From: an uncultured virus (IMG/VR IMGVR_UViG_3300044638_007692)
Taxonomy: Duplodnaviria > Heunggongvirae > Uroviricota > Caudoviricetes
Reading direction: 5' to 3' (one strand)
DNA: 64,000 nucleotides
IMG/VR virus record: IMGVR_UViG_3300044638_007692
Location: 1-64,000 of that record
Each line of letters opens with the position of its first letter. Position 1 is the stretch's first letter. The notes below the pieces were generated by a model. The model had not been told where the DNA came from, did no database searches, and worked only from the letters and a program-made list of their open reading frames with translations. Of the stretch, positions 37,103-64,000 are shown piece by piece. Made by a program: the position numbers and the translations under genes.

Positions 37103-37651
37103 GTGTGGAAACCAGCTAATAACATAGAATGGCAGTCTGAAGCCCTTTGTGCTCAGCCAGGAAATAATCATTATAGAGACTGGTTTTTCTCCAAAGACCC
37201 AAAGCAAAAATATGATGCAAAAAATCTTTGCTATGAATGTCCCGTAAGAGCGCAATGTCTGCAGTGGGCTTTAGAGCACCGACAAATTTGGGGCACATGG
37301 GGCGGCAAAGACGAAAGTGAAATACGTCGAGCACTTTCTGTTTCTTATAAGGGTGAAGAGATAAAACGCCGTAGATACCCGCACTGTCCTTATTGCTCAG
37401 CACGTCCTTCAAAGCTGGAAACAAGTTCTCAGGAAATTCCTGGTGGTGGTAGGTGGACTGTCGCCAAGATAGTCACATGTACGGTGTGTGGCTTTTCTTG
37501 GCGCAGTCGAACTAGCGTAAATGCTATTGAAGCTTATAAACAAGAGCGTATTGATAAATCTGAAAAAAGAGCACGCATTCGAGAGAAAAAAGCTTTAAAG
37601 CTAGAAAAGAAACGTTTAGCTAAAAAACTTAAGAAGCAACAACTTAAATAA
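37103..37651 (+). CDS. whiB: WhiB family transcription factor fused to a zinc ribbon and basic tail
   Basis: WQSEALC...CYECPVRAQC...WGTWGG; then CPYC...CTVC and a Lys/Arg-rich C-terminus. Confidence 0.9.
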   Translation: MWKPANNIEWQSEALCAQPGNNHYRDWFFSKDPKQKYDAKNLCYECPVRAQCLQWALEHRQIWGTWGGKDESEIRRALSVSYKGEEIKRRRYPHCPYCSARPSKLETSSQEIPGGGRWTVAKIVTCTVCGFSWRSRTSVNAIEAYKQERIDKSEKRARIREKKALKLEKKRLAKKLKKQQLK

Positions 37652-39152
37652 TAAAGTCTTTGGGATTCATCTCAAAAGGTCTACTATTTTCATGAATTTT
37701 TCTCATGTCTTCTCTAAATGCTCTGTATTGAGCTTGAGCAAATTCAAATTGATCAAATTGTTTCAACTCACTCATTGCTTGTTCTCTTGAAACATACCCA
37801 AGACCAGCTAAGGTCCACTTCCATAGAGAATCTACACCCCAAAAATCCATAAAATGTAAAGCACTAGGAATTCTACTCTTTGACCTCTCGATGTAGTTTT
37901 CTACAGCAGGAGAGGTAATCTTGTCGAACTTAATAGTTTTCCAAAACTCGGAATCTTCTCTTCCACCTTGATAGTGGAACACCGTGAAGTCTTTATAATA
38001 CTCATACATTTTTTCAGTTTTAGCGTTGTATTTTTGTATTGAAGCAGGGTTTAAAGTTTTTTCTTTTGTATCTGAAAGATACTCTTGACAGAAACTAAAA
38101 ATTTGCATAATAGTTGCATGAATACTGGTTGCCTCTAAAGGTTCAATAAAAGAGCTTGCAAGGCCAACTACCAAAACATTGCCTTTCCAAAATTGGTCCA
38201 CTCGGCCTGATTCATATTTAATATGCTTAATTGGCTCAATAGGGTGCCCCATAATTTTTTCAGCTTCTTTTTGAGCTTCATCCTCAGAAATAAACGCACT
38301 GCTGTAGACATACCCACAACCTCGGCGGCCTCCTGTAGGAGTTCGCCACATCCAACCAGAAGAAAGAGCTTCTGCAACTGTTACAGGTTGTACTTTTTCT
38401 TCTTCTTTGTATGGAACTATAAAAGGCATAGCTCTATCTACAAGAAGTTGGTTTTTGTAGTCTGTCCACCCAATCCCGACCTTGTTTGCCAACAATCTAA
38501 CAAATCCAGTAGCGTCAATGAAAAAATCTCCTTCAATGACTTGACCATCTTCGATAATTACGCTTTCAACTAGACCATCGCTAGTAACAGTAACATCCTT
38601 GATAATTGAATCTATATGAGTAGTTTTTGTGGTTGTAGTTATATACTCTCGTAAAAATTTAGCTACTTTATGGGCATCAAACTGAAACCCATAACCTCCA
38701 CCCGCTGGCGGAAGTTTATTTAGATCATAAGACTGCCCTAATACAGAAGATAGATAAGCTTTTTCAGGACCAAACTCTGTTACAACATAATTAAATAGAT
38801 GGTCAGGAGAGCGCTTAGAAGTTTCTGAGCCGTTAATTGGTGCCCAATAAGAGCCTTTGTCTTTAGCCCAGTTGATGTGTTTAAGTGCGTACTTAGGTAC
38901 AGCATCGACTTTTTTAGCAAACTCTGCAAAATCAAAAGCCACTTTGTTTGGGTTCATTGTTTGATTATTTCCAAATAAAGTAGAGCCATCTAATACATCG
39001 TAGAGAAAACCGCTTGTAGCCTCTCCAGCTCCAATAATTCCTATTTTTTGTGATTCTATAACCACTACTTCATGAAACTTTGGATTACTAGAGTGAATGG
39101 TTAAAGCGGTAAGCCATCCAGCTGTTCCACCACCACAGACTACAAATTTCAC
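37644..39152 (-). CDS. flavin-dependent (tryptophan halogenase-like) halogenase
   Basis: GGGTAGW FAD motif, GAGEAT, Lys in PKYALK at the position of the catalytic Lys, FIDATGF, GWMWRTP (WxWxIP-like), FIEPLEATSI. Confidence 0.85.
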   Translation of the reverse strand: MKFVVCGGGTAGWLTALTIHSSNPKFHEVVVIESQKIGIIGAGEATSGFLYDVLDGSTLFGNNQTMNPNKVAFDFAEFAKKVDAVPKYALKHINWAKDKGSYWAPINGSETSKRSPDHLFNYVVTEFGPEKAYLSSVLGQSYDLNKLPPAGGGYGFQFDAHKVAKFLREYITTTTKTTHIDSIIKDVTVTSDGLVESVIIEDGQVIEGDFFIDATGFVRLLANKVGIGWTDYKNQLLVDRAMPFIVPYKEEEKVQPVTVAEALSSGWMWRTPTGGRRGCGYVYSSAFISEDEAQKEAEKIMGHPIEPIKHIKYESGRVDQFWKGNVLVVGLASSFIEPLEATSIHATIMQIFSFCQEYLSDTKEKTLNPASIQKYNAKTEKMYEYYKDFTVFHYQGGREDSEFWKTIKFDKITSPAVENYIERSKSRIPSALHFMDFWGVDSLWKWTLAGLGYVSREQAMSELKQFDQFEFAQAQYRAFREDMRKIHENSRPFEMNPKDFII

Positions 39153-40228
39153 TAGACACTCTTTTCTTCTGGATTTACAGCGCTAAGACAAAATTTAAGA
39201 TTTTCTGCAAGTCTTTCATTATCTGGCTCGATGCTAAAAGCGTTCTTTGCATGCTCCACTGCTTCTTCAAACTTACCTAAATAGTAAGCAGAAATTGCAG
39301 CAAAATCGTGCGGGGCTGCTCCCCATGCTTTTGCTTCGCACAAATACTCTAAAGGTTTCTCAGCAATGGCAATAGCATCTTTAGCAGCTTCATAACACTT
39401 CTGCCAATCTTTACGTTGATAGTACAACTCTGCTAAATCAACAAAAGGTTCACGTCGTCCTGGAGCTTGCTCGATAGCTTTACGAAACCAAATCTCTGCT
39501 TCTGCAGGAAGACTCTTACCAATAAAGCGCATTGATGCAGCACGCTCTGGTGCCCACCGAGCTGTTGGGAGTTCAAGATGTCGCTTTAGCTCTACTGCTG
39601 CTTCTTGGTAGCGACCATAAAAATAAAGTTCTCGACCATAGTAGAACGCATTGCGGTCGTTATATGGATCTTCTTGAACAGAAAGAGCTAACAACGGTAG
39701 ATACTGAGAGCGCGACTTTGTTGGGTCTGGGTGGTGGTGAGTCTCTAAACCTTCAATCCACTCTTGTACTTCCTCGCGTCCGTATACATATAAACACTCA
39801 TGCACTGGGTGACGCCAACGATAATTTTTACGAGTATGAATGTGGTCATAGCTAAACTCCAAACCTGGAGTCCCATCATCATTCCAAGACCAAATATGCT
39901 TATAGCGAGGACGTGTTACTCCACGTTGCCATGCAGCTTCAAGCAATGGACGCCAGTTAGGAGTAATTACTTCATCCATATCAAGGGAGATACACATATC
40001 AATATCGATTGGTAAAGCTGCCATTGCTGCGTTTCTAGCATCATCAAAACGCCAAGGGGATACTCGAACATCGACTACATTAATTCCAAGCTCTTTTGCA
40101 CGCTCAACGGTGCCGTCTGTGGAGCCTGTATCGGCTATTAACAAGTAATCAGCTTCTTTTGAAGCTTCATACCATTTATCAACAAACTGTCGTTCATTTA
40201 ATGCGATTGTGTATATAGCTACTTTCAT
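39152..40228 (-). CDS. GT2-family glycosyltransferase with C-terminal TPRs
   Basis: IALNE, ADTGSTDGT, FDDARN, SLDMDE (DxD), HPVHE; TPR-like helices (RNAFYYGRELY, REPFVDLAELYY). Confidence 0.85.
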   Translation of the reverse strand: MKVAIYTIALNERQFVDKWYEASKEADYLLIADTGSTDGTVERAKELGINVVDVRVSPWRFDDARNAAMAALPIDIDMCISLDMDEVITPNWRPLLEAAWQRGVTRPRYKHIWSWNDDGTPGLEFSYDHIHTRKNYRWRHPVHECLYVYGREEVQEWIEGLETHHHPDPTKSRSQYLPLLALSVQEDPYNDRNAFYYGRELYFYGRYQEAAVELKRHLELPTARWAPERAASMRFIGKSLPAEAEIWFRKAIEQAPGRREPFVDLAELYYQRKDWQKCYEAAKDAIAIAEKPLEYLCEAKAWGAAPHDFAAISAYYLGKFEEAVEHAKNAFSIEPDNERLAENLKFCLSAVNPEEKSV

Positions 40229-40237
40229 GTGAGCATC

Positions 40238-40813
40238 CTACCTTGTCTTCCTATACCAACGCTGATATCCGTCAACTAAAAGTTCGAGTCGGTCCGAATA
40301 AACTGCATTAAAGGCATCTATTGCCAACTTTGGCTCATTTAAATAGCCAAGCCCAGCGGACCATTGATAATCATCAAAAGCTATTATTCCATTTACATTT
40401 AAACACTCGTAAGCGCTTATTGCATCTTTTATTACACCATAGGAAGTATGATCCCCATCAACATACACAAAGTCATACTTCTCTAAATTATTTTTAAAAA
40501 ACCAATCACTTGTAGACTTGACTTTAATAATTTTTTTGCTCTGCTGCCCTACTAAAGTTTTTACATCATAAAAACTTTCTACAGACTCCCAGTTCATCTG
40601 ATTATGAACAGGTTCGTCAGAACCCTCCCACGTGTCTACATCAATCAACACCGAGTCTGGGTTGTGACGTAATATGTTGTCCCAAAGCCACACAGAAGCA
40701 TCCCCTGTGTATGCGCCTATTTGCAACATTCGAGCAGGTTTATTTAAAAACTCTAGTAGATGGTTTTTAAAGTTCTCTTGACCATCATTTTCAAACCAGT
40801 TGGGATATGTCAT
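40238..40813 (-). CDS. class I SAM-dependent methyltransferase (Methyltransf_24-like)
   Basis: LQIGAYTGDAS, DVDTWEGS, YDFVYVDGDH, GIIAFDDY. Confidence 0.85.
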   Translation of the reverse strand: MTYPNWFENDGQENFKNHLLEFLNKPARMLQIGAYTGDASVWLWDNILRHNPDSVLIDVDTWEGSDEPVHNQMNWESVESFYDVKTLVGQQSKKIIKVKSTSDWFFKNNLEKYDFVYVDGDHTSYGVIKDAISAYECLNVNGIIAFDDYQWSAGLGYLNEPKLAIDAFNAVYSDRLELLVDGYQRWYRKTR

Positions 40814-40845
40814 TTTCGTCCTTTCGTAAAATAGCTTACCTTAAA

Positions 40846-41475
40846 TTACACGTATGGGGTAGCACCGCTATAGCTTGAGTGGGGAGTTCCAGTCCAAAAT
40901 CCGTCTAGTGAGCCATCAAAATAGGTCCCCAAAGTGGAAGACCTTTCTGCCATAACAGAGTCAACAAAAAATACGTCTGTATTAGATGCTGAAGTGGTCA
41001 CAATTCTTAGTGCAAAAAAATTAGCTCCAGAGGTTCTAGTAAAAGACCCGCTCAATCTAACCCAGCCATCAGCACTAGTTAGGGCTTGAATTCCAATATT
41101 TCCACTAGATATAGCAGCTGAAGCATTGCTTGTGGTGTATTGAAGATGACGAAGATAGTAAGTCGCATTGTCATTTAGAGCATCAAGCTTTACATAAGCG
41201 CTGACAGTCCACTCTTCTGAAGTGTCAATAAATGGGATTCTTTCAAGTGTTTGAACACCTCCTCCAGAGGTGTTTGTAACTTTAAGACAAGCTGACCCTG
41301 TGTTAAATTCGTTTGTATCTCTTTCTAAGGTAGTTCCAGCAAAAGGTGTCCAGTCAGAGATGTCTACTTCAAAAGTCGGGTTTTTAATATAATTAACCCT
41401 GTAATCTAAATTAAAAGCTTCTGCAGGGTTTTTTAAATAACCTGCACCAGCAATGGACCCGACATTAATTGGCAT
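40846..41475 (-). CDS. carbohydrate-binding (CBM_4_9-like) virion-type protein
   Basis: NYIKNPTFEVDISDW...WTVSAYVK...WVRLS...FFVDSVMAE...YFDG. The likely start is MPINV at 41475, just after the upstream stop at 41478. Confidence 0.65.
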   Translation of the reverse strand: MPINVGSIAGAGYLKNPAEAFNLDYRVNYIKNPTFEVDISDWTPFAGTTLERDTNEFNTGSACLKVTNTSGGGVQTLERIPFIDTSEEWTVSAYVKLDALNDNATYYLRHLQYTTSNASAAISSGNIGIQALTSADGWVRLSGSFTRTSGANFFALRIVTTSASNTDVFFVDSVMAERSSTLGTYFDGSLDGFWTGTPHSSYSGATPYV

Positions 41476-41477
41476 TT

Positions 41478-41939
41478 TTAAATTAGTGCCAAGTCTCCGA
41501 CGAGAATCCACTCGTTAGTTCCAATTTTTACGGCAGAAGCTACAGAGTAGCGAGCTCTCAATTTATTGGTTGGAGTTGCTCTTACTGTCACGCCGACTGC
41601 CCCAGCGACGGTAAGCTGACCTGCTCCATATTGAATAAAGTCAATTTTTTGACCGTCTTGAAAAGCAACTGATGCTTCAACAGGTATTGTTGCAATCATA
41701 GAAGCACCGTTATCACATTTTAAAATTTTTCCAGCATCAGTTAGCTCTAAAATAAAAGAAGCGCTTTTTGTCACAACAGGTTGAGCAGTTGACCAGTCCC
41801 CCTGAGGCCCAGTAACACCCTGTGCACCCGTTGGGCCAGTAGGCCCAACAAAGCCAGTAGGACCAGTAGGACCTGTAGCTCCAACAGCAATAGGTTTCCA
41901 AATTTGATCATCAAGATCATATTTTTTTAAGACTGGCAT
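41478..41939 (-). CDS. short collagen-like protein with C-terminal beta domain
   Basis: (GPT)n segment; C-terminal LRARYSVASAVKIGTNEWILVGDL domain shared with 58308-60197. Confidence 0.75.
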   Translation of the reverse strand: MPVLKKYDLDDQIWKPIAVGATGPTGPTGFVGPTGPTGAQGVTGPQGDWSTAQPVVTKSASFILELTDAGKILKCDNGASMIATIPVEASVAFQDGQKIDFIQYGAGQLTVAGAVGVTVRATPTNKLRARYSVASAVKIGTNEWILVGDLALI

Positions 41940-41958
41940 TTTATTCTCCTATTGACTC

Positions 41959-43545
41959 TTAAGGTAGGGCGTGCGTCCACAGTGCACGGTTAGAAGCTGT
42001 TACAGAACCTGCAGAAATAGAGCTTGGTAAATCTGTTTGAGCCGCAACTAAACCTGTAATTCTTGGAGGTAAGGCCAAAATTGCGTTAACACCAGCAGAT
42101 GCAACATGTGCGTGACCAATAACTGTAGGAAGCGTTTGTGTGCTTACCAGTACAACTGCATATGCATACAAATTACCAGCTGTCTTGGTAAATGATGAAG
42201 TTAAGTTAACTTCAAAAGCGCTGTTAGCGGTTGAAAAAATTGATGTGTCGTTTGCAGTAGACGCTACCAAAGTTAAATCTCCAGTAGAGTCATTTACTGA
42301 ATAGACTCCATATTTCACTAGTGTTGGGGTTGCACCAGCAGCAGTACCGCAAGCCATAGAAAGTTTTGTAATAGTTTCTGTTTTGATTGCTCGACGATAA
42401 GTTAGAATAAGGTTTCCTGATGCTCCATATGCAACACCAGTAAGAGGAGCTTTTCTATCAATACTGCCCTCTCCACTAGAAAGAATATCTAAATCACCAA
42501 GTCTCGTGTTTAACCCAGAAATTTGACTTGTAGATAGGGTCACCTCATCACTACCGCCAGCAGCATGAGTGCTAGCGTGGGTAAGAATTGCTGAATCTAC
42601 AGTTGTATCTACCCAAATAATTGATAAATCTGCTGGAGGAACTGCACTAGAAATTATTCCTGTTTCACCAATAGCACCAGTAGGACCTGTTGGCCCCTCA
42701 GGACCAGTTGGACCAGTAGGTCCGAGTGAACCAGTTGGACCTGTTGGACCAGCAGCACCAGTTGGTCCTCCTGGTTCACCAGCAGGTCCAGTAGCGCCAG
42801 TTGCACCATCTGCTCCACCAATACCCTGTGGACCTGTAGGTCCAGTAGAACCTGTAGGGCCAGTTACACCAATTGGACCAACGAGCGCCCACTCTTGGTT
42901 AAGGTCTGACCATGCATAAACAAATTCTGAAGCAACGACATAAGCATCACCAATTGCACCAATTGGGTTATCAGCTTGAAGAAGATTAAGAGTTGCGTAT
43001 GTTCCAAGAATACGAACGCTAGACCCTTGGGGACCAGTTGGTCCTGATGGGCCCGTTGGACCAGATGGACCAGCGGGACCTGTTGGTCCTGAAGGAGCAA
43101 TACTTGCTACAGTGTTAAATCCTGAACCTGTATAAAAATTAACTTCTTGAGTGTCAGAATCAATCCAAATATCTCCTACAGAAGGGAATCCCGGTTGATT
43201 TGAAGAATAAGTTATATTTGCTCTACCAGCTTGATCATAAACAAGAGTTGCAGAAAAATTAGCAAGAGATGTGCTGGACTTAACCCAAAGCTGGTCTCCA
43301 ACATTTAAAGCAAATCTAAATGTCTCAAAGGATTGACCCACAGAAACAGCCAAATTGTCAACAATGTAGGAGCGAGTTGCCTCCACACCTAGGGCTTCGG
43401 CTGGTTCAACGTAGATAGTAACAAGACTCTGAATATTAGCTCTGTTTGAAACAATTACAGAAGCAACACCAACTGTGTCGTTGGTAGCAAGCAGAGTAGC
43501 TATGTTTGCATTGGGAGTAGCAAGACCTAAGCGTTTTGCTGCCAT
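41959..43545 (-). CDS. collagen-like fibre protein
   Basis: N-terminal domain (RLG...SFETFRFA) paralogous to 45201-47594; G-X-T repeats; distinct C-terminal domain. Confidence 0.8.
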
Positions 43546-43595: not shown

Positions 43596-45188
43596 CTATA
43601 CCGTGGCTCTTTGGAAGGAGAATTTTCTCTGTGAAGCCATAGGTACGTAGGCTATCAGGTTAGCGCCACCATGCACGCTATGGACATTCGTATAGTCATT
43701 TGTGAGGTCAGTCTTAAAAAGACTAGAAAATGACTTATCTTTGATGAAGTTGATGACCTGTCTTGGGGTCCAGTCTGGGTGCATTTGATATACAAGAGCC
43801 GCTATACCTGCAATTTGAGGAGCTGCCATGGAGGTACCAGACAAAAGTTGCTGCTTAAAAGAGCCATTTAAAAAGTACGGGTAGTTAGAGTTATCGTCAT
43901 TAACTTGGCTCATTGCACTCATAATTCTGGACCCAGCGGCATAAACTGTCACTCCTGGACCAGAATTACTGAAGTTTGACTTTCTGTCTGTTGAAGTTCC
44001 AGTGACTGTTTGGTGGTCAACAGAACCTACAGTAAAAACACTCTCTCGTGCTGTAATACTAGCTCCTGGTGTGCCACCTCTGTGGTATGTAAAAGCGCCA
44101 AAGTCAGTGAGGATGTAGTTGTTGTAATCAAATCCACCTTGAACATCAATTTTTGTAAACTCATTTCCAGCAGCGTTGACAAATAAAATTCCAGCTTCAG
44201 CGCCAGTTCTAATGTCAGCATCAACAGCAGCAACTCTAAATGGATATCTATAAGTAGATGGAGCAACAAGAGCACCAGTGTGACCTTTTGCAGTGTCTAA
44301 TACAGTACCTTCCCAAGCAACACCTCGGTAAACCCCTCCATTTATAGCGTAAAGAGTTTCTGATTCATCTAAGCCAAATGAAAAGGCTTCTAAATCTGCT
44401 CTATGAAATACTCCATACCCCCAGCTATTAACAACAACAGTAGGTCTTCCATTTGTTTTGTTATTGTGCCAACCAATTAACACATCAAAAGCGGTTGCTA
44501 CGTCAAACCCTTCTCCAGGATCACTAGGAGCTCTTAATCCTTCAAGCTTTATAGAATAAATTCTTGCATTTTTTGCCCATCCAAAATTAAGACCAGCAAC
44601 AGTAGCAGCAACGTGAGTTCCATGACCATCATAATCTTGATAGAACCCTGAGGGCATACTTCCAGAAACACCACTGACTGCAAACCAATCTACAAGGTTT
44701 ACTCTACTTGCACCACTACCATCAGAATATAAAAATTCAGGGTGGTTGGCTTGAATACCGCTATCTATAATTACAACGTCAACATTAGAACCATCTAAAA
44801 CATAGTCATAGGTTCCACCTGGGTCTAAAAGACTACTTCCATAAACATTAGATAGCTTTGAATGTCTCAACAATCCCCAGTTAACTTTAGGACCAGTTTG
44901 ATTTGTAGTTTTATCAAAAGTTCCAGTTTGAAAAGCTAACTTTTGTGGTTTAAAAATGCTTAGGTCTTGTACATCGGAAACGCGAGGGTCTTGTCTTAAA
45001 AACTCTGCTTCTCTATCTGTTAGCCAGTATGAAGTGTTTAAAGGGTTTTCTGGCCTATCGTTTGCCACTTCCACGGCTCTAATAGGAATAGTAGTTAGAT
45101 TACTTCCCTCAGTAAGAAGAGCGTCCCACACAGCATCAGTAAGCTCTAGACTTTCTGTAGTAACTGTGTACTCTTTGTATTCACTCAT
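43596..45188 (-). CDS. subtilisin-like (S8) serine protease with N-terminal prodomain
   Basis: Catalytic triad motifs VVIIDSG, GHGTHVA, SGTSMAAP; oxyanion AAGN. Confidence 0.9.
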   Translation of the reverse strand: MSEYKEYTVTTESLELTDAVWDALLTEGSNLTTIPIRAVEVANDRPENPLNTSYWLTDREAEFLRQDPRVSDVQDLSIFKPQKLAFQTGTFDKTTNQTGPKVNWGLLRHSKLSNVYGSSLLDPGGTYDYVLDGSNVDVVIIDSGIQANHPEFLYSDGSGASRVNLVDWFAVSGVSGSMPSGFYQDYDGHGTHVAATVAGLNFGWAKNARIYSIKLEGLRAPSDPGEGFDVATAFDVLIGWHNNKTNGRPTVVVNSWGYGVFHRADLEAFSFGLDESETLYAINGGVYRGVAWEGTVLDTAKGHTGALVAPSTYRYPFRVAAVDADIRTGAEAGILFVNAAGNEFTKIDVQGGFDYNNYILTDFGAFTYHRGGTPGASITARESVFTVGSVDHQTVTGTSTDRKSNFSNSGPGVTVYAAGSRIMSAMSQVNDDNSNYPYFLNGSFKQQLLSGTSMAAPQIAGIAALVYQMHPDWTPRQVINFIKDKSFSSLFKTDLTNDYTNVHSVHGGANLIAYVPMASQRKFSFQRATV

Positions 45189-57382: not shown

Positions 57383-58306
57383 TTACCCTCCTGAGTAAGC
57401 AATTTTGCCACCGTTTCCAACAACAATGGCTAAAGACTCGTCGAAATAAACATCATTTACGTTGGATATGCCTACACCAGAATTTCTTTGAATCCATTGA
57501 ATAGAATCCGTTGAGGTAGCAACTTTTCCTGCAGTTCCTCCAGCTAGATAGTAGTTCTCACTATTTGCTGCGACTGACCTAATCTGAGAAGATCCGAAAC
57601 TACTTGCTGGGAAAGACTGAATCCATGTAAGACCATTAGTAGAACTAGCAATTTTTCCTGAGTCTCCAACGGCAATGTACTTGTCTCTTGCTGGATTTCC
57701 TACAACTGAAAAAATTGTGCTTGATATAAAAGATGACCCGCGTTGAGTCCAACTAACCCCATTTGTTGATGTTGCAAGTTTTCCATCATATCCAACAGCA
57801 ATAATAAGATTTGCGTCAGAATAAACGTTGTTTATAAAAGAAGTCCCAAAAGAAGAAAGTCTTTGAGTCCAATCAATTCCATCAATAGAGGTAGCTAACT
57901 TTCCAGAACCACCTACAGCAATCCACAAACCTGCCGCTTGAGAGTATGTGATTCCCAAGATTGCACTAGCACCAAAAGAAGATGAACGTAGTGTCCAGTT
58001 TATTCCATCAGTTGATGTAGCAAGTTTTCCAGAACTTCCTCCAACAACATAAATATCGTCTCCATATGCCACTGCATAAATATTGCTACCAGCAAAACCA
58101 GAAGTTCTCTGGGTCCAACTAGTTGAAACATCGTTAGATGTGGCAAGTTTTCCAGAACTACCGACTGCTACAAATTGCCCCATGCCATTTGTAGCAATTG
58201 AATTAATGTTGGTAGAGCCAAAAGAACTGGTAGGAACAAGTGACCAGCTAGTAGGTAAAAAAGCTACTGGCAGGGTCGCATGCATTGCATGGGTAGATAT
58301 CAGCAT
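57383..58306 (-). CDS. BNR/Asp-box-like beta-propeller protein
   Basis: About seven repeats of AVGxSGKLATSxDGxxWTQRxSSFGxSxI. Confidence 0.75.
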   Translation of the reverse strand: MLISTHAMHATLPVAFLPTSWSLVPTSSFGSTNINSIATNGMGQFVAVGSSGKLATSNDVSTSWTQRTSGFAGSNIYAVAYGDDIYVVGGSSGKLATSTDGINWTLRSSSFGASAILGITYSQAAGLWIAVGGSGKLATSIDGIDWTQRLSSFGTSFINNVYSDANLIIAVGYDGKLATSTNGVSWTQRGSSFISSTIFSVVGNPARDKYIAVGDSGKIASSTNGLTWIQSFPASSFGSSQIRSVAANSENYYLAGGTAGKVATSTDSIQWIQRNSGVGISNVNDVYFDESLAIVVGNGGKIAYSGG

Positions 58307-58307
58307 T

Positions 58308-60197
58308 CTAAGCCTGTAGGTTTCCGCTTAACAACCACGAATTAGCTCCAAGTTTAATTAGAGAAGCTACTGCATAACGCTGCTTACTTGTATAGCGACT
58401 TCCTTCACTAAGAACACTAACTCCTGCAGCACCAGTAACACTGAAAACAGCACTACCTAATTGCGTCAAAACAATCTGAGAACCAGTGTCGAATGTATAT
58501 CCGCTAGTTCCATCTGCTGGAATAGTTACAACAGTAGGAGAAGAGCTGTTCAACTTGACTAAAGAAGCATTGTCATTAGCAGTAAGAGTTACAGAAGCTA
58601 AATACTGAGGACCAGTTAGATTAAAGAATGCAGGTCCAGTTGGTCCTTGAATACCAGTAGAGCCTGTAGGTCCAGTGCTTCCAGTAGGTCCAGTAGGTCC
58701 TGCAACTGTGCTATCAGCACCTGTAGGACCTGTAGGACCAATTAGTCCTTGTGACCCAGTAGGCCCTGTGCCTCCAGTAGGACCTTGAATACGTCCCACA
58801 TTTTGCCAAGTAGTTCCGTTCCAAACCCAAAGGTCACCTGTTGCAGAAACTACATAAGCATCGTTAATTTGATTTCCACTTGCTGGAAGATTTACGTCAA
58901 ATTGAACAGTACCTTTAAACTTAATAGAAGCACCCTGAGGACCAGTAGGACCTGTAGGTCCGATTTCTCCAGCACCAAGAACTAAGTTCCAACTTGCATA
59001 TGTATTTCCTTCACCATTTACCTTGTCCACAAACATGGTGATGCTTGTGCCAACAATTGTGGTGATGACACCTTCCATATAATCCTGAGGGAAGCTAGCA
59101 CTAGCTAAACGAGCTCGAGTTCCGACAGCAAAAGCATCAACTTTATTAACAATAAAGTTTTCAGATCCTAAAGAAACAGAAAGGTTGCTTGTAGATGTTA
59201 CTCCAGCAAAACTTGCTCCCGCTGAACCTGTAGGACCAGTAGGACCAGCACCTGTTGGTCCTGTAGGACCTGTTGGTCCTGGAATATTGGAAGCAGCACC
59301 AGTTGGGCCAGTTACAGATGGACCTGTAGGACCTGTAGGTCCTGGAATAGTAGAGGCAGCACCTGTGGCACCTGTAGCACCAGTCGCACCACGAAGACCA
59401 GCAGCACCAGTTGGACCTTCAGAACCAGTAGGGCCTGTTGCTCCTGTTGGACCTGTAGGTCCACCTGCAGGACCTGTCGGGCCAGAAGCACCAGTTGCAC
59501 CTGTCGCACCAGTTACTGACGGACCAGTAGCACCTACTGGGCCAGTAGGACCGACGAATCCGCGAGGACCAGTTGGGCCAGTAGCACCTTGCAAACCTTG
59601 TGCACCAGTTGGGCCAGTTGTACCTTCTTCACCTTGAGGACCAGTATTTCCGATTGGTCCAATAGGACCTGTAGGACCTCTTTCACCTTCAGGACCAGTT
59701 ACACCTTGTGCACCTGTAGGACCTTGTGGACCAGTAGGCCCAGTGATGTCAAAACCTCGAGGACCAGATGGGCCTGTATTTCCTTGTGGGCCTGTTGGTC
59801 CTGTAGAACCTGTAGGACCAGTTGGACCTAGAACTGTACTTTGAGGGCCAGTAGCACCTGTAGCTCCAGTAGGACCTTGGCTACCGCTCAAACTTGATGC
59901 AGACTCAACCCAGTAGTCATCAAAGTAAACATAAATTTTTCCAGTTGCAGTATTTAACCAAGCATCACCTGCAGAAGCTCCAGTTGGAGGAGTGTCTGAT
60001 GCTAAAAGAACAGTGCCTGTCGCACCTGTAGGACCAGTTACATTACTTGCTGCTCCAGTAGGACCTTGAGGACCAGTAGGACCAACAACTTGAGAAATAA
60101 CTAAGTTCCAAGAAGTTCCATCCCACTGCCAAGTTTGACTACCTGAAGTAAATAAATCGTTTGGTGTAGGAGAATTAGGAAAATCAATAGCTGCCAT
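58308..60197 (-). CDS. collagen-like fibre protein
   Basis: [10 protein letters not shown]...TWQWDGTSW; long G-X-T tract; C-terminal [21 protein letters not shown] domain. Confidence 0.8.
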
Positions 60198-60211: not shown

Positions 60212-60913
60212 CTATACCACTGACTCGTATGTGAATTGGACAAGAATCTTGTCATTACCGCTAAACAAAAATGGAGTGCTTTCAGTAACTGCTACACCTT
60301 CATCAAATGTTGCAGACTGTGAGTGCATAAACAATTCAATTCTGTTTGTAAAGTTATTGTTGAAAATTGCAGTTCCAAAGTAAGTAATACCTGGACCTTC
60401 ATCTCGCATAACCACTTGCCCTACAGGCTGGTAATTCTCGACGATACCGTTTGAAGGAAGGCTTAGAGAATAAGTTCCACTTCCTCTGTTAAATCCAGAA
60501 GTTCCAGCTTGAATTCTAATTTCTCCAAAAATTGTTGCACCTACATAGGTATATCTACCTTGAATAATTCCATTACCGATTTGCGGATTAGTTGTGCTGC
60601 CATACCAAACAGGTGTATATAAAGTCCAAGGTTCAATCGCGAAAGAACCTGTCGCACCTGTAGGTCCAATTGGACCAGGTGTAGTTGAAGGAGCTCCTGC
60701 TGGTCCTTCTGGGCCAGTTGGTCCTTGCGCACCTGTAGGTCCAGTTGCACCAATAGCTGTTGAGTCTGCACCTGCTGGTCCTGTAGGACCAGTAGGACCT
60801 TGAGCACTAGTACGAACTAGTCGCCAAGCAGTACCATCCCAAGAATAAGTGTTAACTCCATTTGTGTAAACCTGATTTAGCGTCGGGTTATTTGGAAAAT
60901 CAATTGCTGGCAT
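60212..60913 (-). CDS. short collagen-like protein with C-terminal receptor-binding-like head domain
   Basis: MPAIDFPNNP...YSWDGTAW; WTLYTP...GRYTYVG...YSLSLP head domain. Confidence 0.75.
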   Translation of the reverse strand: MPAIDFPNNPTLNQVYTNGVNTYSWDGTAWRLVRTSAQGPTGPTGPAGADSTAIGATGPTGAQGPTGPEGPAGAPSTTPGPIGPTGATGSFAIEPWTLYTPVWYGSTTNPQIGNGIIQGRYTYVGATIFGEIRIQAGTSGFNRGSGTYSLSLPSNGIVENYQPVGQVVMRDEGPGITYFGTAIFNNNFTNRIELFMHSQSATFDEGVAVTESTPFLFSGNDKILVQFTYESVV

Positions 60914-60934: not shown

Positions 60935-63900
60935 CTAGTTCGATACGTAAGATCCTGTTAGATACAAAACTGCAGTTGTAGAAAGTGTAGTTGGCGCTGT
61001 TCCAGTTACCGCGGTCAACAGGCCGTTTGTTCCTTCAAACCAAATTTTCATAGTTGCAGAACCCTCGGTTTGAGTAACTGCTTTTACTCCATAAATTGCA
61101 CCAGTTTGAGAACCACTAATATCTAAAACTCCAACAGCAGTCACTACTTGAGCACCGTTTGGTAGGAATGGAAGAGTTACTGTTAATTGAGCAGCACTAA
61201 AAGTGGAGTTTGAATATACAACTCTAAGATAGAAAGAAACATCTTGACCATATTTTGTATACTCTCCAAACACATTTGGTGTACCAGTTACCCCACCAGC
61301 AATAGGAACATAAGAAGCTGAGACAGGAGTTCCTGTTGCTCCAGTAGGACCAGAAGGGCCTGTAGGACCAATTTTGTCTACAACTTCAATAATTCCACCA
61401 ATACTTGGATCTGTAACGTCTACATATACAAGTGAGGTAGGTGCATTTAAAGGAACATCGTAAATAATTGTTGTGTCAGCACTTGCACCAGAACGACCTT
61501 GAGTAGGTGAGTTATTAATAGTTCCTGGAACTGTTGAAGATGAGAACTGAGTTAGTCTCAGTGCAAATGGGTTAGCAGTTAAAACCTGACTTACATCAAT
61601 ATATAAACGCTCACCGCGAACTGCAATTAATGTTGGGTTGTTACCAATAATTCCTTCAACTGAGTAGGAGCCATTATCTCCAGTAGAAGTTACTTGATAA
61701 GTAACACCACCCTTAGGACCAGTAGGACCGAATGGACCTGTTGGGCCAGTAGGTCCCGGTTGAGTAGATGCAGGGCCAGTTGGACCTGTAACTCCCGGAC
61801 CAGTCGGACCTGTTGGACCAACAATTTGTCCTACGTTATTCCAGCTATCGCCATCCCAGACATATAAGTCACCATCAGCATCAACAGCACGACCATCATT
61901 GATAGTATTGCCAGTTGCTGGGAGATTACCAACAGTCGCAACGCTTGCCTTCATAGTGATTGAAGTACCTTGAGGACCAGTAGGTCCAGTAGGACCAGCT
62001 CCACCTGTTGGGCCAGTAGGGCCAGCTACTGTTGAATCAGCACCAGTTGGACCAGTAGGTCCAATCAAAGCACCAGCTTCAATCCATCCATTAGTTGCTG
62101 TGTAAATGTAGATGGTGTCTTCTTCGTAAATTACGTAGAAGTCTCCAACTTCACCAGAAGTTGCGCCAGCACCAGCGATGAACTCAGCGTATGTGTTGTA
62201 GTAACCCTTGGCTTGAGAACCAACACCTTGTGGACCTGTAGGACCAGTAACAATTGGTCCAGTAGCACCAGTAGCACCAGTTGGTCCTACAAATCGTCCT
62301 CTATCAGTCCAAGCTGTTCCATCCCAAATCCAAAGATTTCCTGAATCAGTAATGATGTATGCATCGTTAGTCTGATTTCCGCCTGTAGGTAGAAGAGATG
62401 ATGTATTTAGGTTTCCTCTAAATGTTAGAGAAGCACCTTGAGGTCCAGTAGGTCCTATATTTCCAACAGTTCCTTGCGGACCAGTAGGTCCAGTAGCGCC
62501 ACCAAATTCGGTACTACCAACTTCTACCCAGAAGTCGTCATAGTAAACAAATACTGCACCATTGTTTGTATCAAACCAAACTTGACCTGCTACTGGGTTT
62601 GATGGCGGAGTGTTTGCCTGTGGGATAAATTGACCGTCAGGACCTGTAGGGCCTACAAACTGTCCAGCATCGACCCAACCAAAACCATCCCACACATAAA
62701 GATTTCCATTAGAAACAACTACATAGCCATCATTGAGAGAGTTTCCGCCTGTAGGCAAAGCACCTACGTTTGCAACCTCTCCAAGAAGGCTTAGAGCTGT
62801 TCCTTGTGGACCAGTTGGACCAGTTGGTCCTGTTGGTCCAGTTACATTTGATGGGGCACCAGTTGCACCTGTGGCACCAACTTCACCCTGAGGTCCAGTA
62901 GAACCTGTAGGACCAGTTGGTCCAGTAGGACCAGTTACTTCTGGACCTGTTGGTCCTTGAGGACCTGTAATTCCTCGATAACCAGTTGGACCAGTAGGAC
63001 CTGTCGCACCCGCAGGTCCAGTTACAGTTGAATCAGCACCTTGAGGACCAGTAGGACCAGTAGGTCCTACAGGAGCTGCACCAGTCTCAATCCAATAACC
63101 GTCGTAATAGACGTAAGTTTTTCCGTTATTGCTGTTAAACCACGCATCACCGTTATTTGGATTTGTAGGTGGTGTTGTATCAGAGATTGCAAAATTACCA
63201 AGTTCACCTTGTGAACCTGTAGGACCAGTAGGACCTGCTTCACCAGTCGAACCAGTAGCACCAGTTGGTCCTTGAGGACCTTGAATGTTTCCAACGTTGT
63301 CCCACTCGGTGTTTACAGCATCCCAAACATAGAGATCACCAGTTACTAAGTAACCATCACCTGATGCTGGTTGAGTGTATTCAGCCCATCCAAAACCTAA
63401 ACCAGGTTGACCACCGACAGTCCAGCCACCAATGGCAGCAAGAATCCAAACTTGACCTGCATGTGTGACTAAGTCATATAGTCCATACATAGCAAAGTTG
63501 TCCCAGTCGGCAGGTGGGGTTGTGTATGTTGGGTTTGCAGCAATAAGAGTTGATTCATCTGGATAGGAACCAAGAATGGTTACACCAATACCAGCAATAC
63601 CCTGTGCACCAGTCGCACCAGTAGGACCAGTTACACCAATCTCACCTTGTGGACCAGTTACACCAATCTCACCTTGAGGACCAGTAGGACCAGTTACACC
63701 AATCTCACCTTGTGGACCAGTTACACCTTGTTCACCCTGAGGACCAGTTACACCTTGTTCACCCTGAGGACCTGTAGGCCCAGTGTCACCTTGTGGACCA
63801 GTTGCACCTGTAGCACCAGTTGGTCCTGCTTCACCTTGTGGACCAGTAAGTCCAAGCGACAATGTAACTAATTCATCATGAGTAAATGAGCCATAACCTG

Positions 63901-64000
63901 TGTAAGAAGTTACGTTAAAAACTACATAACTTCCAGGTGTTGTCTCATTAGTAGCAGTTCCAGCTACACAAGAAGTAATCTCATATGTGGCGTAAGTACC
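60935..64000 (-). CDS. 5'-truncated long collagen-like fibre protein
   Basis: The frame stays open from 63862 to the window end ([14 protein letters not shown]...ELVTLSLG); many GPT tracts and knob modules; C-terminal GEYTKYG...LPF head domain. Confidence 0.8.
63624..63770 (-). repeat. 27-bp tandem repeats encoding GPQGE(Q/I)GVT
   Basis: GGACCAGTTACACC(AATC/TTGT)TCACC repeated five times. Confidence 0.85.

What the first reader, a model, noticed from the sequence alone, without database searches (positions are those of the whole stretch)
37644..64000. Collagen-fibre locus with its own modifying enzymes: candidate BclA/exosporium-like glycosylated virion coat
Seen: a 26-kb same-strand block encodes at least seven proteins with Thr-rich Gly-Pro-Thr/Gly-Ala-Thr collagen tracts, a subtilisin and a CBM. 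It ends in a tightly packed trio of SAM methyltransferase, GT2-TPR glycosyltransferase and flavin-dependent halogenase (9-nt gap, then a TAGTG overlap). Established: spore collagen-like BclA proteins of Bacillus anthracis and Clostridioides difficile have G-X-T repeats that are O-glycosylated. C. difficile bclA3 sits beside its glycosyltransferase SgtA, and BclA glycans in B. anthracis include O-methylated sugars. Virion glycosylation is known in some mycobacteriophages. Inference: this phage builds a 'hairy' coat of collagen fibres and glycosylates, methylates and perhaps halogenates it with its own enzymes, for shielding, adhesion or particle attachment.
Basis: partly seen in the sequence, partly recalled or inferred. 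Interest (0 to 1): 0.85.

Follow-up and report, generated by a model that had tools for sequence, protein, structure and literature searches.

The report
Phage collagen fibres with own glycosyltransferase
A lake phage of actinobacteria carries about 30 kb of collagen-like fibre genes, followed by a sugar-adding enzyme whose relatives sit beside spore and cell-surface collagens in many bacteria, a sugar methylase and an optional halogenase, so it probably glycosylates its own fibres.

Summary
Window 37644-64000 (minus strand; the block runs on to 67255 in the 78.6-kb contig) encodes 7 collagen-like proteins. They hold 506 G-X-Y triplets, with Thr at Y in 280. The block also holds an S8 subtilase, a CBM_4_9 protein, two giant glycine-rich virion proteins and a BNR-type propeller. 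It ends in MT, GT2-TPR and halogenase, with the 9-nt gap and the TAGTG overlap as described.

- **GT:** the link to collagen is strong. The model's best fold matches are the peptide glycosyltransferases SunS and ThuS. All 43 related viral loci with at least 4 kb upstream carry collagen genes. In two sets of 80 bacterial loci, a Thr-rich collagen gene lies within 300 bp of the GT homologue in 33 and 45 loci. Many of these carry a BclA_C domain, as in the SgtA/BclA3 pair of C. difficile.
- **MT:** it folds like sugar O-methyltransferases and accompanies the GT in 58 of 67 viral loci.
- **Halogenase:** it looks catalytically intact but is optional. It is present in 30 of 67 viral loci, in three positions around the GT and from two deep lineages, and in none of the 160 bacterial loci. 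Its substrate is open.
- **Fibres:** they look like tail or host-recognition fibres, not a shown "coat".

I rate this a new variant of a known kind.

The parts
37644..39152 (-). Flavin-dependent halogenase (502 aa), last gene of the block; its GTG start overlaps the GT stop codon
   Evidence: Pfam Trp_halogenase 2.6e-83. PDB sequence matches: RebH, Thal, PyrH and PrnA at about 1e-48 to 1e-50, VirX1 at 9e-37. G7-G12/W13, K87, W267-x-W269-x-x-P272 and E337-P-L are invariant in 24 phage halogenases; E340 is present.
39152..40228 (-). GT-A (GT2) + TPR glycosyltransferase (358 aa), proposed O-glycosyltransferase for Thr of the collagen tracts
40238..40813 (-). SAM-dependent O-methyltransferase (191 aa), proposed sugar O-methylase
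   Evidence: Pfam Methyltransf_24 9.5e-13. AF2 model pLDDT 88.9. Top folds NovP, MeT1, SpnH and MycF. Present in 58 of 67 related viral loci.
40846..41511 (-). CBM_4_9 carbohydrate-binding protein (221 aa; the true start is probably the internal MPINV Met)
   Evidence: Pfam CBM_4_9 1e-9. NCBIfam GTA_spike_fiber 5.2e-8, 33.6 bits against a cut-off of 36.
41478..41939 (-). Collagen-like fibre protein, 153 aa (10 G-X-Y triplets)
41959..43545 (-). Collagen-like fibre protein, 528 aa (32 triplets)
   Evidence: PHROG tail protein and tail fibre families
43596..45188 (-). S8 subtilase (530 aa) inside the fibre block
   Evidence: Pfam Peptidase_S8 2.7e-30; phrog_9158 3.3e-63; mycosin-like at 1.7e-23, below cut-off
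45201..47594 (-). Collagen-like fibre protein, 797 aa (76 triplets); its C-terminus matches a 'baseplate wedge tail fiber connector' PHROG
47604..53708 (-). Giant virion protein, 2034 aa, with a glycine-rich domain
   Evidence: phrog_5838 'virion structural protein' 3.2e-142 and phrog_2885 'baseplate wedge subunit'. tblastn matches to structural proteins of Syn1 and S-PM2.
53726..56410 (-). 894-aa protein with a He_PIG Ig domain and a C-terminal glycine-rich domain
56505..57155 (-). Collagen-like fibre protein, 216 aa (39 triplets), N-terminal 'MAAIDFP' tail-collar-like domain
57383..58306 (-). 307-aa repeat protein with SxDxGxxW-like (BNR/Asp-box type) repeats, probably a beta-propeller
   Evidence: Sequence. 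NCBIfam F510_1955 glycosylhydrolase 5.6e-8, below cut-off. The repeat name is recalled.
58308..60197 (-). Collagen-like fibre protein, 629 aa (83 triplets)
60212..60913 (-). Collagen-like fibre protein, 233 aa (15 triplets)
60935..64000 (-). 3' part of a 2106-aa collagen-like fibre gene (251 triplets) that starts at 67255 of the contig, outside the window
37103..37651 (+). WhiB-like regulator, convergent with the block. It marks the block's 3' boundary in nearly all related phages and points to an actinobacterial host
   Evidence: Pfam Whib 4.3e-17; PHROGs; gene order in related loci

Best explanation
The window comes from a large siphovirus of freshwater Actinomycetota. A late transcription unit on the minus strand encodes its accessory host-recognition apparatus. 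This comprises seven trimeric fibres with Thr-rich collagen stalks, two giant glycine-rich virion proteins, a protease, a propeller and a carbohydrate-binding module.

The last genes of the unit encode the enzymes that finish these fibres.
- **GT-A+TPR glycosyltransferase:** it holds the unfolded or folding G-X-T stalk with its TPR domain. It transfers a sugar from a nucleotide sugar, using metal and its DxD motif, to Thr hydroxyls at the Y position. This is what SgtA does on BclA3.
- **Methyltransferase:** this metal-dependent enzyme then O-methylates the sugar.

The sugars are expected to stabilise G-P-T triple helices and to change the surface of the fibres.

The flavin-dependent halogenase is an optional third gene of the cassette. 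It has been gained and lost repeatedly, and its substrate is unknown. I rate a fibre-directed role (an aromatic residue of the same proteins) and a fibre-independent role at about 0.4 each.

What is shown: the gene content, folds, motifs and neighbourhoods. What is inferred: the acceptor (Thr in collagen tracts), the donor sugar, the methylation site, and everything about halogenation. The confidence given is for the GT and MT acting on the phage's own collagen fibres.
For: **Host and phage type.** WhiB, portal, capsid, tape-measure and Dit/Tal-like genes, with no sheath gene. The closest record, Actinomycetia phage DSL-LC01, is syntenic. DNA holders are lake and freshwater metagenomes from 15 studies.

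**GT.**
- It has a GT2 domain with an invariant D83-x-D85, followed by TPR repeats.
- SunS and ThuS, which glycosylate peptides, are the only solved structures that match across both domains.
- There is a weak sequence hit to the flagellin O-GlcNAc transferase GmaR (E 0.0039).

**Viral neighbourhood.** 67 IMG/VR loci carry GTs 63-100% identical. All 43 loci with at least 4 kb upstream hold collagen ORFs. Two more distant lineages keep the GT among collagen genes. In L066 it sits with two Fringe-like GTs, an FkbM methyltransferase and UDP-galactopyranose mutase. In L067-69 it sits with a GlcNAc-type GT.

**Bacterial neighbourhood.**
- First set of 80 loci (38-58% identity to the window GT; several phyla): 59 have a collagen ORF within 8 kb and 33 within 300 bp. 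Of the 35 within 1 kb, 32 are on the GT's strand. Collagen ORF density is 2.42 per 10 kb at 0-1 kb against 0.27 at 3-8 kb. Thr is at Y in 2553 of 3482 triplets.
- Second set of 80 Firmicutes loci: 55 within 4 kb and 45 within 300 bp; all 48 within 1 kb are on the same strand.
- Of 64 adjacent collagen ORFs, 24 carry BclA_C, 3 an LPXTG anchor and 2 RTX repeats.

**Known parallel and rationale.** SgtA is 358 aa, GT-A plus TPR, encoded next to bclA3, and adds beta-O-GlcNAc to Thr of G-P-T repeats (PMC7157674, passages). (Gly-Pro-Thr)10 folds into a triple helix only when its Thr residues are galactosylated (PMC11923368, passages).

**MT.** Its top fold matches are sugar O-methyltransferases. It is present in 58 of 67 viral loci. 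A 52%-identical copy sits between two GT genes beside a 1030-aa collagen gene in an Actinomycetota MAG.

**Halogenase.** Motifs are intact. It is always next to the GT when present: 30 of 67 loci, plus 4 more found with the halogenase as query, plus DSL-LC01. It occupies three positions and comes from two deep lineages.
Against: - No experiment, proteome or RNA data exist for this phage.
- Direct homology to SgtA itself was not tested, because no tool gave its sequence.
- In 21 of 80 and 25 of 80 bacterial loci no collagen ORF lies in the flanks held. A 32%-identical GT in jumbo phage PaBG has no annotated collagen neighbour. So more distant members may have other acceptors.
- Within the phage lineage, synteny is partly inherited and is not independent evidence.
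- The contig holds only one GT and is probably incomplete, so the glycan cannot be inferred.
- Halogenase: it is absent from 37 of 67 related loci and from all 160 bacterial loci. On the GT tree its presence needs at least 6 changes. Homologues in Syn1, S-PM2, HTVC008M and P-SSM2 have no GT-TPR or annotated collagen gene nearby. The end of an operon is also a common place for unrelated accessory genes (general knowledge).
Confidence: 0.68

Rival explanations
1. The GT and MT do modify the fibres, but the halogenase is an independent accessory ('moron' or auxiliary metabolic) gene that landed at the permissive end of the late operon. It acts on a free aromatic metabolite of the infected cell, such as an indole or tryptophan derivative.
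For: It is absent from 37 of 67 related viral loci and from all 160 bacterial GT loci, and its presence needs at least 6 gains or losses on the GT tree. Homologues at about 30% identity in cyanophages and a pelagiphage lie among auxiliary genes or next to 2OG-Fe(II) oxygenases, without a GT-TPR. Other unrelated small ORFs are also inserted around the MT and GT in relatives. VirX1 halogenates free aromatic compounds in vitro (PMC8407142, passages). The DSL-LC01 authors treat theirs as an auxiliary gene (PMC10611076, passages).
Against: Two deeply separated halogenase lineages occupy different slots, all touching the GT, and one lies between the MT and the GT. In the window its start codon overlaps the GT stop. 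All 21 close homologues found in IMG/VR lie in this context, except one cut by a contig end. No other enzymes that would make a small-molecule scaffold are in the contig.
Confidence: 0.4
2. The GT (with the MT) glycosylates other virion proteins, such as capsid or tail-tube C-termini as in mycobacteriophage Che8, rather than the collagen tracts.
For: Virion glycosylation of capsid and tail-tube subunits by phage-encoded GTs is reported for mycobacteriophages (Freeman et al. 2023, seen only as cited in PMC11256854 and PMC12619734). The host here is also an actinobacterium. The giant 2034-aa and 894-aa proteins are 11-12% Thr.
Against: The GT family's constant neighbour across phyla is a collagen gene, not a capsid gene. 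None of the 69 phage records with a tblastn match to this GT is a Mycobacterium phage. The GT lies 26 kb from the capsid and tail-tube genes, on the other strand.
Confidence: 0.1
3. The GT and MT change the host's envelope (wall polysaccharide or the host's own surface collagen) during infection or lysogeny, to block superinfection.
For: This is the usual reading of GTs in phage tail-fibre regions (PMC7029224 and PMC10202952, passages). Single-domain fold matches include the wall teichoic acid enzymes TarS and TarP. Freshwater Actinomycetota chromosomes carry their own collagen + GT-TPR (+MT) clusters with 54% and 52% identical enzymes. The contig ends in a serine recombinase fragment.
Against: The genes sit at the end of the structural fibre operon, tightly packed with it. 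The phage brings at least seven acceptor-like collagen proteins of its own. The TPR-bearing fold matches are peptide glycosyltransferases.
Confidence: 0.08
4. Halogenase, GT and O-methyltransferase together tailor a small natural product. The same three enzyme types decorate rebeccamycin (recalled).
For: The three enzyme classes are tightly linked. The MT's best folds are natural-product sugar O-methyltransferases.
Against: The GT is a GT-A+TPR peptide-type enzyme whose homologues sit beside collagen genes. No scaffold-forming genes are present. The halogenase is missing from more than half of the relatives.
Confidence: 0.04

Closest known systems
SgtA / BclA3 of Clostridioides difficile (spore collagen O-GlcNAc transferase and its substrate)
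   Same: The enzyme is 358 aa with an N-terminal GT-A domain and C-terminal TPR repeats, is metal-dependent, and is encoded next to a collagen-like gene rich in G-P-T. It adds sugar to Thr of those repeats (PMC7157674, passages). Homologues of the window's GT (37-46% identity) in Clostridia and Bacilli lie directly beside Collagen+BclA_C genes.
   Different: Here the acceptors would be phage fibre proteins without a BclA_C domain, at least seven of them. An O-methyltransferase and a halogenase are attached. Sequence homology to SgtA itself was not tested. The published domain limits of SgtA (GT 1-260, TPR 262-358) differ from this model (GT about 1-170, TPR about 176-351).
SunS / ThuS glycocin S-/O-glycosyltransferases (PDB 7msn, 7msp, 7msk)
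   Different: Identity is 13-16%. Among the ORFs of at least 80 aa in the block, none looks like a glycocin precursor or an export gene; smaller ORFs were not examined.
VirX1, the flavin-dependent halogenase of cyanophage Syn10 (PDB 6qgm)
   Same: Both are viral members of the Trp-halogenase family (E 9e-37), with the catalytic Lys and the GxGxxG and WxWxIP-type motifs. VirX1 has a large open active site and no known natural substrate or gene cluster (PMC8407142, passages).
   Different: The homology is distant; cyanophage homologues are about 30% identical. Here the gene is embedded in a fibre, GT and MT operon, which gives a context that cyanophage copies lack.
Actinomycetia phage DSL-LC01 (OQ999401)
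   Same: It is the closest deposited phage. It has WhiB convergent with GT (62% identical), halogenase, collagen genes and a giant glycine-rich protein.
   Different: Its halogenase lies upstream of the GT, is only 23% identical, and lacks parts of the motifs. It has no adjacent MT. Its paper lists the halogenase as an auxiliary gene and never uses the word collagen in the main text.
Virion glycosylation in mycobacteriophages (Che8 and relatives)
   Same: A phage of an actinobacterium encodes its own GTs that decorate virion proteins (seen only as cited).
   Different: The targets reported there are capsid and tail-tube C-termini. No Mycobacterium phage is among the 69 records that match this GT.
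Mimivirus L230 with collagen-like protein L71
   Same: It is a virus-encoded enzyme that glycosylates the virus's own collagen-like proteins (PMC9614988, passages).
   Different: The chemistry differs (Lys hydroxylation, then glucose on hydroxylysine), and so do the enzyme family and the host, which is eukaryotic.

Membership tests
SgtA-type GT-A+TPR protein O-glycosyltransferase paired with a G-X-T collagen gene | GT-A (GT2) catalytic domain with a DxD motif | tested here: met
   Pfam Glycos_transf_2 25.7 bits against a cut-off of 23.3. D83-M-D85 invariant in 27 sequences. Beta/alpha domain at residues 1-165 in the model.
SgtA-type GT-A+TPR protein O-glycosyltransferase paired with a G-X-T collagen gene | C-terminal TPR domain | tested here: met
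   TPR_19 and TPR_2 pass their Pfam cut-offs. Helical repeats span 176-351 in the model. TPR fold matches.
SgtA-type GT-A+TPR protein O-glycosyltransferase paired with a G-X-T collagen gene | Gene lies beside a Thr-rich collagen-like gene | tested here: met
   Window. All 43 viral loci with at least 4 kb upstream. 33 of 80 and 45 of 80 bacterial loci within 300 bp. BclA_C in 24 of 64 neighbouring collagen ORFs.
SgtA-type GT-A+TPR protein O-glycosyltransferase paired with a G-X-T collagen gene | Detectable sequence homology to SgtA (CD3350) itself | not tested
   No tool returned the SgtA sequence. C. difficile was not among the best 80 loci of either genome scan, which says nothing either way.
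SgtA-type GT-A+TPR protein O-glycosyltransferase paired with a G-X-T collagen gene | Transfers a sugar to Thr of G-P-T repeats | not testable with these tools
   Needs enzymology or glycoproteomics.
Glycocin glycosyltransferases (SunS/ThuS) | Two-domain GT-A + TPR-like fold | tested here: met
Glycocin glycosyltransferases (SunS/ThuS) | Neighbouring glycocin precursor peptide and export or maturation genes | tested here: inconclusive
   None among ORFs of at least 80 aa in the block. Small ORFs were not examined.
Flavin-dependent (tryptophan-type) halogenases, PF04820 | Family profile above cut-off and full-length match to solved halogenases | tested here: met
   280.8 bits against a cut-off of 21. 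PyrH aligns over residues 3-455 and VirX1 over 4-406.
Flavin-dependent (tryptophan-type) halogenases, PF04820 | GxGxxG, WxWxIP, catalytic Lys and Glu | tested here: met
   G7GGTAG12 is present. W267-M-W269-R-T-P272 has Thr in place of Ile. K87 is invariant in 24 phage sequences. E340 aligns with the second Glu of RebH's EPLES. The motif list comes from PMC8407142. Equating K87 and E340 with K79 and E357 rests on recalled numbering.
Flavin-dependent (tryptophan-type) halogenases, PF04820 | Halogenating activity and a defined substrate | not testable with these tools
Metal-dependent sugar O-methyltransferases (TylF/NovP/MycF type) | Class I SAM fold closest to sugar O-methyltransferases | tested here: met
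   Foldseek top matches are NovP 2wk1, MeT1 6g80/6g7d, SpnH 4ce0 and MycF 4x7z (E 3e-9 to 5e-8), closely followed by catechol-type O-methyltransferases.
Metal-dependent sugar O-methyltransferases (TylF/NovP/MycF type) | Acidic metal-binding residues | tested here: inconclusive
   D119, D121, D147 and D148 are invariant in 17 sequences. 'YDFVYVDGDH' aligns with 'FDFVFVDADK' of a caffeoyl-CoA O-methyltransferase. Their role as metal ligands is inferred from recall.
Mycobacteriophage virion-glycosylation system (Che8 type) | Homologous glycosyltransferases | tested here: not met
   tblastn of the GT against 50,697 phage records found 69 records, none from a Mycobacterium phage.
BclA exosporium nap proteins | C-terminal BclA_C (C1q-like) domain on the collagen protein | tested here: not met
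   None of the 7 collagen ORFs of the window hits BclA_C at E up to 0.01. The domain is found on the bacterial neighbours of GT homologues.

The most novel reading that the evidence does not exclude
The phage halogenates its own glycosylated collagen fibres. The late-expressed flavin-dependent halogenase would put chlorine, bromine or iodine on Trp or Tyr residues of the fibre proteins, or use its hypohalite chemistry to cross-link them. That would give the first halogenated virion and the first natural (macromolecular) substrate for a viral halogenase. More broadly, the GT2-TPR family would be the general, so far uncurated, 'collagen Thr glycosyltransferase' of bacteria and their phages. That would explain how the Hyp-free G-P-T collagens common in viruses fold.
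Probability: 0.3. Interest if true: 0.9.

Novelty: new variant of a known kind. Interest (0 to 1): 0.66.

Why it matters
G-P-T triplets are over-represented in viral collagen-like proteins, yet (Gly-Pro-Thr)10 does not fold unless its Thr residues carry sugar. Where and how such tracts are glycosylated is described as unknown (PMC11923368). This locus offers a directly testable answer for an abundant lineage of lake phages: the fibre operon carries its own SgtA-like enzyme.

The same enzyme family turns out to be a steady neighbour of collagen-like genes in hundreds of bacterial genomes. These include BclA-type spore proteins, LPXTG-anchored proteins of Actinomycetota and RTX-collagen proteins of Alphaproteobacteria. 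Pfam and NCBIfam have no model for this family.

GTs in phage tail-fibre regions are usually read as modifying the host surface or DNA. Here fibre self-glycosylation fits better.

The recurrent attachment of a halogenase to this cassette is also the first genomic context that hints at what viral halogenases such as VirX1 do in nature.

Tried and rejected
- **RNA evidence:** no RNA holder is listed for 37644-43600. The 20 holders are lake or freshwater DNA runs from 15 studies.
- **Promoter and terminator scan of 37000-56900:** fewer sites than in shuffles (24 against 34.2; 12 against 15.2), so it says nothing about operon structure. A first try exceeded the size limit.
- **Freeman et al. 2023:** not held, so it is cited only through other papers' passages.
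- **Earlier findings of this scan:** none for this genome.
- **SgtA homology:** two genome scans did not list C. difficile among their best 80 loci, so it stays open.
- **Halogenase in cellular genomes:** only 12 relatives were found, all Dehalococcoidia or Chloroflexi MAGs at 34-36% identity, with no collagen ORF nearby. This does not inform function.
- **Halogenase against S8 subtilase:** among 26 distinct loci scored for both, the counts are HAL+S8+ 12, HAL+S8- 0, HAL-S8+ 4 and HAL-S8- 10. Only 2 independent pairs lie on well-supported branches, so the link is not significant.
- **Shared genes with acI-type chromosomes:** apart from the GT and MT, no gene of the Actinomycetota clusters matches the phage loci at E 1e-6 with low-complexity masking.
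- **Other contexts:** in PaBG the 32%-identical GT has no annotated collagen gene beside it. The 5-kb 'fecal' contig L073 (GT 43% identical) has no collagen ORF, and its neighbours have no Pfam hit.
- **DNA glycosylation:** considered and set aside, given the TPR domain and peptide-GT fold.
- **Small-molecule cassette:** set aside, as there are no scaffold genes.
- **Fx.Px.Sx.G halogenase motif** (mentioned in PMC8407142): I could not map it with confidence, so it was left out.

Full report
**What the window is.** The plus strand of 1-37651 carries a siphovirus structural module: a portal fusion, major head protein, major tail protein, tape measure, Dit/Tal-like proteins and a tail fibre with an endosialidase-chaperone domain. 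A replication module follows (DNA polymerase, helicase, exonuclease, Sak4, SSB), then two WhiB genes. WhiB points to an actinobacterial host. The closest deposited phage is Actinomycetia phage DSL-LC01 from a lake. Near-identical DNA is held by 20 lake or freshwater metagenome runs from 15 studies, 7 of which may be the source. The window is the first 64 kb of a 78,633-base contig.

Convergent with WhiB, a minus-strand block runs from 37644 to 67255 of the contig.
- It has seven collagen-like ORFs of 153, 528, 797, 216, 629, 233 and 2106 aa. The last is cut by the window's end.
- Together they hold 506 G-X-Y triplets in tracts of at least 4, with Thr at Y in 280 and Pro at X in 248.
- Between them lie an S8 subtilase, a CBM_4_9 protein, a 2034-aa and an 894-aa glycine-rich protein, and a 307-aa repeat protein.
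- The block ends in methyltransferase, GT2-TPR and halogenase.

**The glycosyltransferase.**
- Pfam finds a GT2 domain and TPR repeats.
- D83-x-D85 is invariant in 27 homologues.
- An AlphaFold model (pLDDT 89.9) has a GT-A domain to about residue 165 and a TPR solenoid at 176-351.
- A weak sequence hit falls on the N-terminal domain of GmaR (E 0.0039).
- The published SgtA of C. difficile has the same length and the same two-domain plan. It is encoded next to bclA3 and adds beta-O-GlcNAc to Thr of G-P-T repeats in vitro (PMC7157674, passages).

**Neighbourhood in viruses.** A scan of IMG/VR with the GT gave 67 loci at 63-100% identity, holding 46 distinct GT sequences.
- In nearly all of them the order is fibre block, MT, GT, then convergent WhiB.
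- All 43 loci with at least 4 kb upstream hold a collagen ORF with a run of at least 8 triplets. The MT is present in 58 of 67. Of the nine without it, four are cut within 1.1 kb upstream of the GT.
- Two loci (L056, L057) have the MT and GT inverted relative to the fibre block but still beside it.
- Two more distant lineages are more telling because their gene order differs. In L066 (GT 66% identical) the order is UDP-galactopyranose mutase, Fringe-like GT, FkbM methyltransferase, collagen (Mtd_N), Fringe-like GT, GT-TPR, collagen, then glycine-rich proteins. In L067-69 (63%) a collagen (Mtd_N) gene and a GlcNAc-type GT precede the GT-TPR, upstream of portal, protease and capsid genes.

**Neighbourhood in bacteria.** This evidence does not depend on the phage lineage's inherited synteny.
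- A profile of the phage GTs found 169 relatives in species-representative genomes. The best 80 (38-58% identical) come from Actinomycetota, Clostridia, Bacilli, Alphaproteobacteria, Planctomycetota and others.
- In that set, 59 of 80 loci have a collagen ORF within the flanks of up to 8 kb, and 33 have one within 300 bp. Of the 35 within 1 kb, 32 are on the GT's strand.
- Collagen ORFs number 2.42 per 10 kb at 0-1 kb from the GT against 0.27 at 3-8 kb. Thr fills the Y position in 2553 of 3482 triplets.
- A second profile, built from Firmicutes members, found more than 593 relatives. Among its best 80 (37-46% identical to the window GT), 55 have a collagen ORF within 4 kb and 45 within 300 bp. 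All 48 within 1 kb are on the same strand, and Thr is at Y in 1505 of 2397 triplets. One contig occurs in both sets.
- One search listed 79 adjacent collagen ORFs. I scanned the 64 that were at least 450 nt long. Of these, 60 hit Pfam Collagen, 24 hit BclA_C (12 above Pfam's cut-off), 3 carry an LPXTG anchor and 2 carry RTX repeats.
- In Intestinimonas massiliensis and Eubacterium coprostanoligenes the Collagen+BclA_C gene and the GT sit among housekeeping genes.
- In a complete acI-type actinobacterial chromosome (L082) and a related MAG (L112), a 935- or 1030-aa collagen gene is followed by a second GT2 gene, the GT-TPR and a flavoprotein of the Pyr_redox_2 family, with sulfotransferase or PAPS genes nearby. 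In L112 a Methyltransf_24 gene lies between the two GT genes. The GT-TPR is 54% identical and the MT 52% identical to the window's enzymes. Nothing else is shared.

So the family is a steady partner of Thr-rich collagen-like proteins, whatever the rest of the protein looks like.

**The methyltransferase.** It is a Methyltransf_24 protein. Its model (pLDDT 88.9) is closest to the sugar O-methyltransferases NovP, MeT1, SpnH and MycF, followed closely by cation-dependent catechol O-methyltransferases. Feature-based look-alikes are viral Methyltransf_24 clusters, some with TylF or Methyltransf_3 signatures. Together with its pairing with the GT, O-methylation of the transferred sugar is the simplest reading. 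This is an inference.

**The halogenase.**
- It is a full-length member of the Trp-halogenase family. It has the flavin motif, a WxWxIP-type motif, an invariant Lys (K87) and the Glu of EPLE (E340). Syn1 and S-PM2 have Gln at that position and DSL-LC01 has Asp.
- It is optional. It is present in 30 of 67 GT loci. On a tree of 43 distinct GTs its presence needs at least 6 changes, 3 of them forced by well-supported branches.
- It occurs downstream of the GT (17 distinct sequences forming one clade, support 100/99), between the MT and the GT (a different lineage, 28-31% identical), or upstream of the GT (L058; and DSL-LC01, which is very divergent).
- A reverse scan with the halogenase found 21 viral loci at 54% identity or more. 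All lie on contigs with the collagen, S8, MT, GT, halogenase, WhiB order, except one cut at the gene.
- None of the 160 bacterial GT loci has a homologue.
- The nearest cellular relatives found are Dehalococcoidia MAGs at 34-36% identity.
- In four cyanophage or pelagiphage genomes the roughly 30%-identical homologue has no GT-TPR or annotated collagen gene within 6-7 kb. In three of the four a 2OG-Fe(II) oxygenase lies within two genes.
- VirX1, the one characterised viral halogenase, has an open active site and no known natural substrate (PMC8407142, passages).

The repeated attachment to the GT suggests a shared pathway. The patchy distribution, and the fact that operon ends collect unrelated genes, argue the other way. 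I leave it at about even odds.

**Coat or fibres.** The collagen proteins match PHROG families called tail fibre, tail protein, tail collar and collagen-like minor tail. The 797-aa protein ends in a 'baseplate wedge tail fiber connector' match. The giant protein matches cyanophage virion structural and baseplate families. Three of the proteins share an N-terminal 'M(A/P)AIDFP...W.W.G..W' domain and two share another, which looks like common docking modules. The CBM protein resembles the head-spike fibre domain of gene transfer agents, just below cut-off. The main tail module has its own tip proteins. The block is best called an accessory host-recognition fibre module. Whether the fibres sit on the tail, baseplate or head cannot be told from sequence.

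**Mechanism.** Late in infection the fibre genes and the three enzymes are made together. No internal terminators stand out, though the scan is uninformative. The TPR domain binds the extended G-X-T chain, the GT-A domain puts a sugar on Thr, and the MT caps it. Because (Gly-Pro-Thr)10 is a random coil unless its Thr residues are galactosylated (PMC11923368, passages), the sugar is likely needed for stable triple helices as well as for surface properties. The contig holds no second GT, so a single methylated sugar per site is the simplest guess. The contig is probably incomplete, however, since relatives reach 92-160 kb.

**Novelty.** SgtA/BclA3 is known, as are phage collagen-like fibres and viral halogenases. 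I did not find the following in print:
- a phage fibre operon with its own SgtA-like enzyme;
- the wide link of this GT family to collagen genes;
- the halogenase add-on.

This rests on searches, on the DSL-LC01 paper, which lists the halogenase as an auxiliary gene and never uses the word collagen in its main text, and on two aquatic-phage papers that read fibre-region GTs as modifying the host surface or DNA. Those searches cover open-access text only. Freeman et al. 2023 and the primary SunS/ThuS and VirX1 papers were not read.

**Limits.** Everything functional is inferred. SgtA homology is untested. Synteny within the phage lineage is inherited. ORF calling in the scripts was mechanical, so GT labels were sometimes lost in high-GC loci and the counts are conservative. 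The pattern-based scans find only part of each family.

Noticed in passing
L082 (complete acI-type actinobacterial chromosome, locus coordinates 2498-14466) and L112: Freshwater Actinomycetota chromosomes carry their own cluster: a 935- or 1030-aa G-X-T collagen gene, a 173-aa ORF, a GT2 gene, a Methyltransf_24 gene (in L112), the GT-TPR, a 238-aa ORF and a Pyr_redox_2 flavoprotein. Sulfotransferase or PAPS-synthesis genes and further GTs lie nearby. This may encode a glycosylated, and perhaps sulfated, cell-surface collagen of the presumed host group. The phage's GT and MT are its closest cellular relatives (54% and 52%).
   Followed up: partly
L002 (Syn1), L004 (HTVC008M), L074 (P-SSM2): In three of four cyanophage or pelagiphage genomes examined, the halogenase lies within two genes of a 2OG-Fe(II) oxygenase. 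In all four it lies in or next to late or structural regions: tail-fibre assembly genes in P-SSM2, the neck/terminase/sheath block in HTVC008M, and 2-3 kb from giant structural proteins in Syn1 and S-PM2. This may be a recurring pair of virion-protein tailoring enzymes.
   Followed up: no
window 43596-45188 and related loci: The halogenase occurs only in fibre blocks that also hold the S8 subtilase. Among distinct loci scored for both, 12 of 12 halogenase-positive and 4 of 14 halogenase-negative loci have S8. There are too few independent contrasts to test this.
   Followed up: partly
window 57383-58306: A 307-aa protein carries about six 'S/T-S-x-D/N-G-x-x-W' repeats typical of BNR/sialidase-type propellers, with a weak match to a glycosylhydrolase family. 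It may be a virion-borne glycan-degrading or glycan-binding module.
   Followed up: no
window 36092-36370 and 37103-37651: There are two WhiB-family genes within 1.6 kb. The second (182 aa) has a long Lys-rich C-terminal tail and is the conserved convergent neighbour of the fibre block in nearly all relatives.
   Followed up: no
contig 74336-78037 (outside the window; L265 14336-18037, minus strand): A 1233-aa protein has an N-terminal hydrophobic segment, long Ala/Thr/Gln-rich repeats, a PA14 domain and an extremely Pro/Glu-rich linker. It lies next to the terminase genes.
   Followed up: no
window 4809-8996: A 1395-aa ORF matches PHROG families annotated as portal protein, head maturation protease and virion structural protein in its C-terminal third. 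It looks like a large fusion or a MuF-like minor head protein.
   Followed up: no
L066 (IMG/VR locus, 5010-11068): A different phage lineage surrounds the same GT-TPR with UDP-galactopyranose mutase, two Fringe-like GTs and an FkbM methyltransferase, set between two collagen genes that carry Mtd_N domains. This suggests a larger glycan containing galactofuranose on its fibres. DSL-LC01 also encodes a GT and a UDP-galactopyranose mutase elsewhere in its genome.
   Followed up: partly
window 41478-41511: The listed GTG start of the CBM gene overlaps the preceding collagen ORF by 34 nt. An internal ATG ('MPINV', like the starts of the 2034-aa and 797-aa proteins) removes the overlap and is the more likely start.
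   Followed up: no
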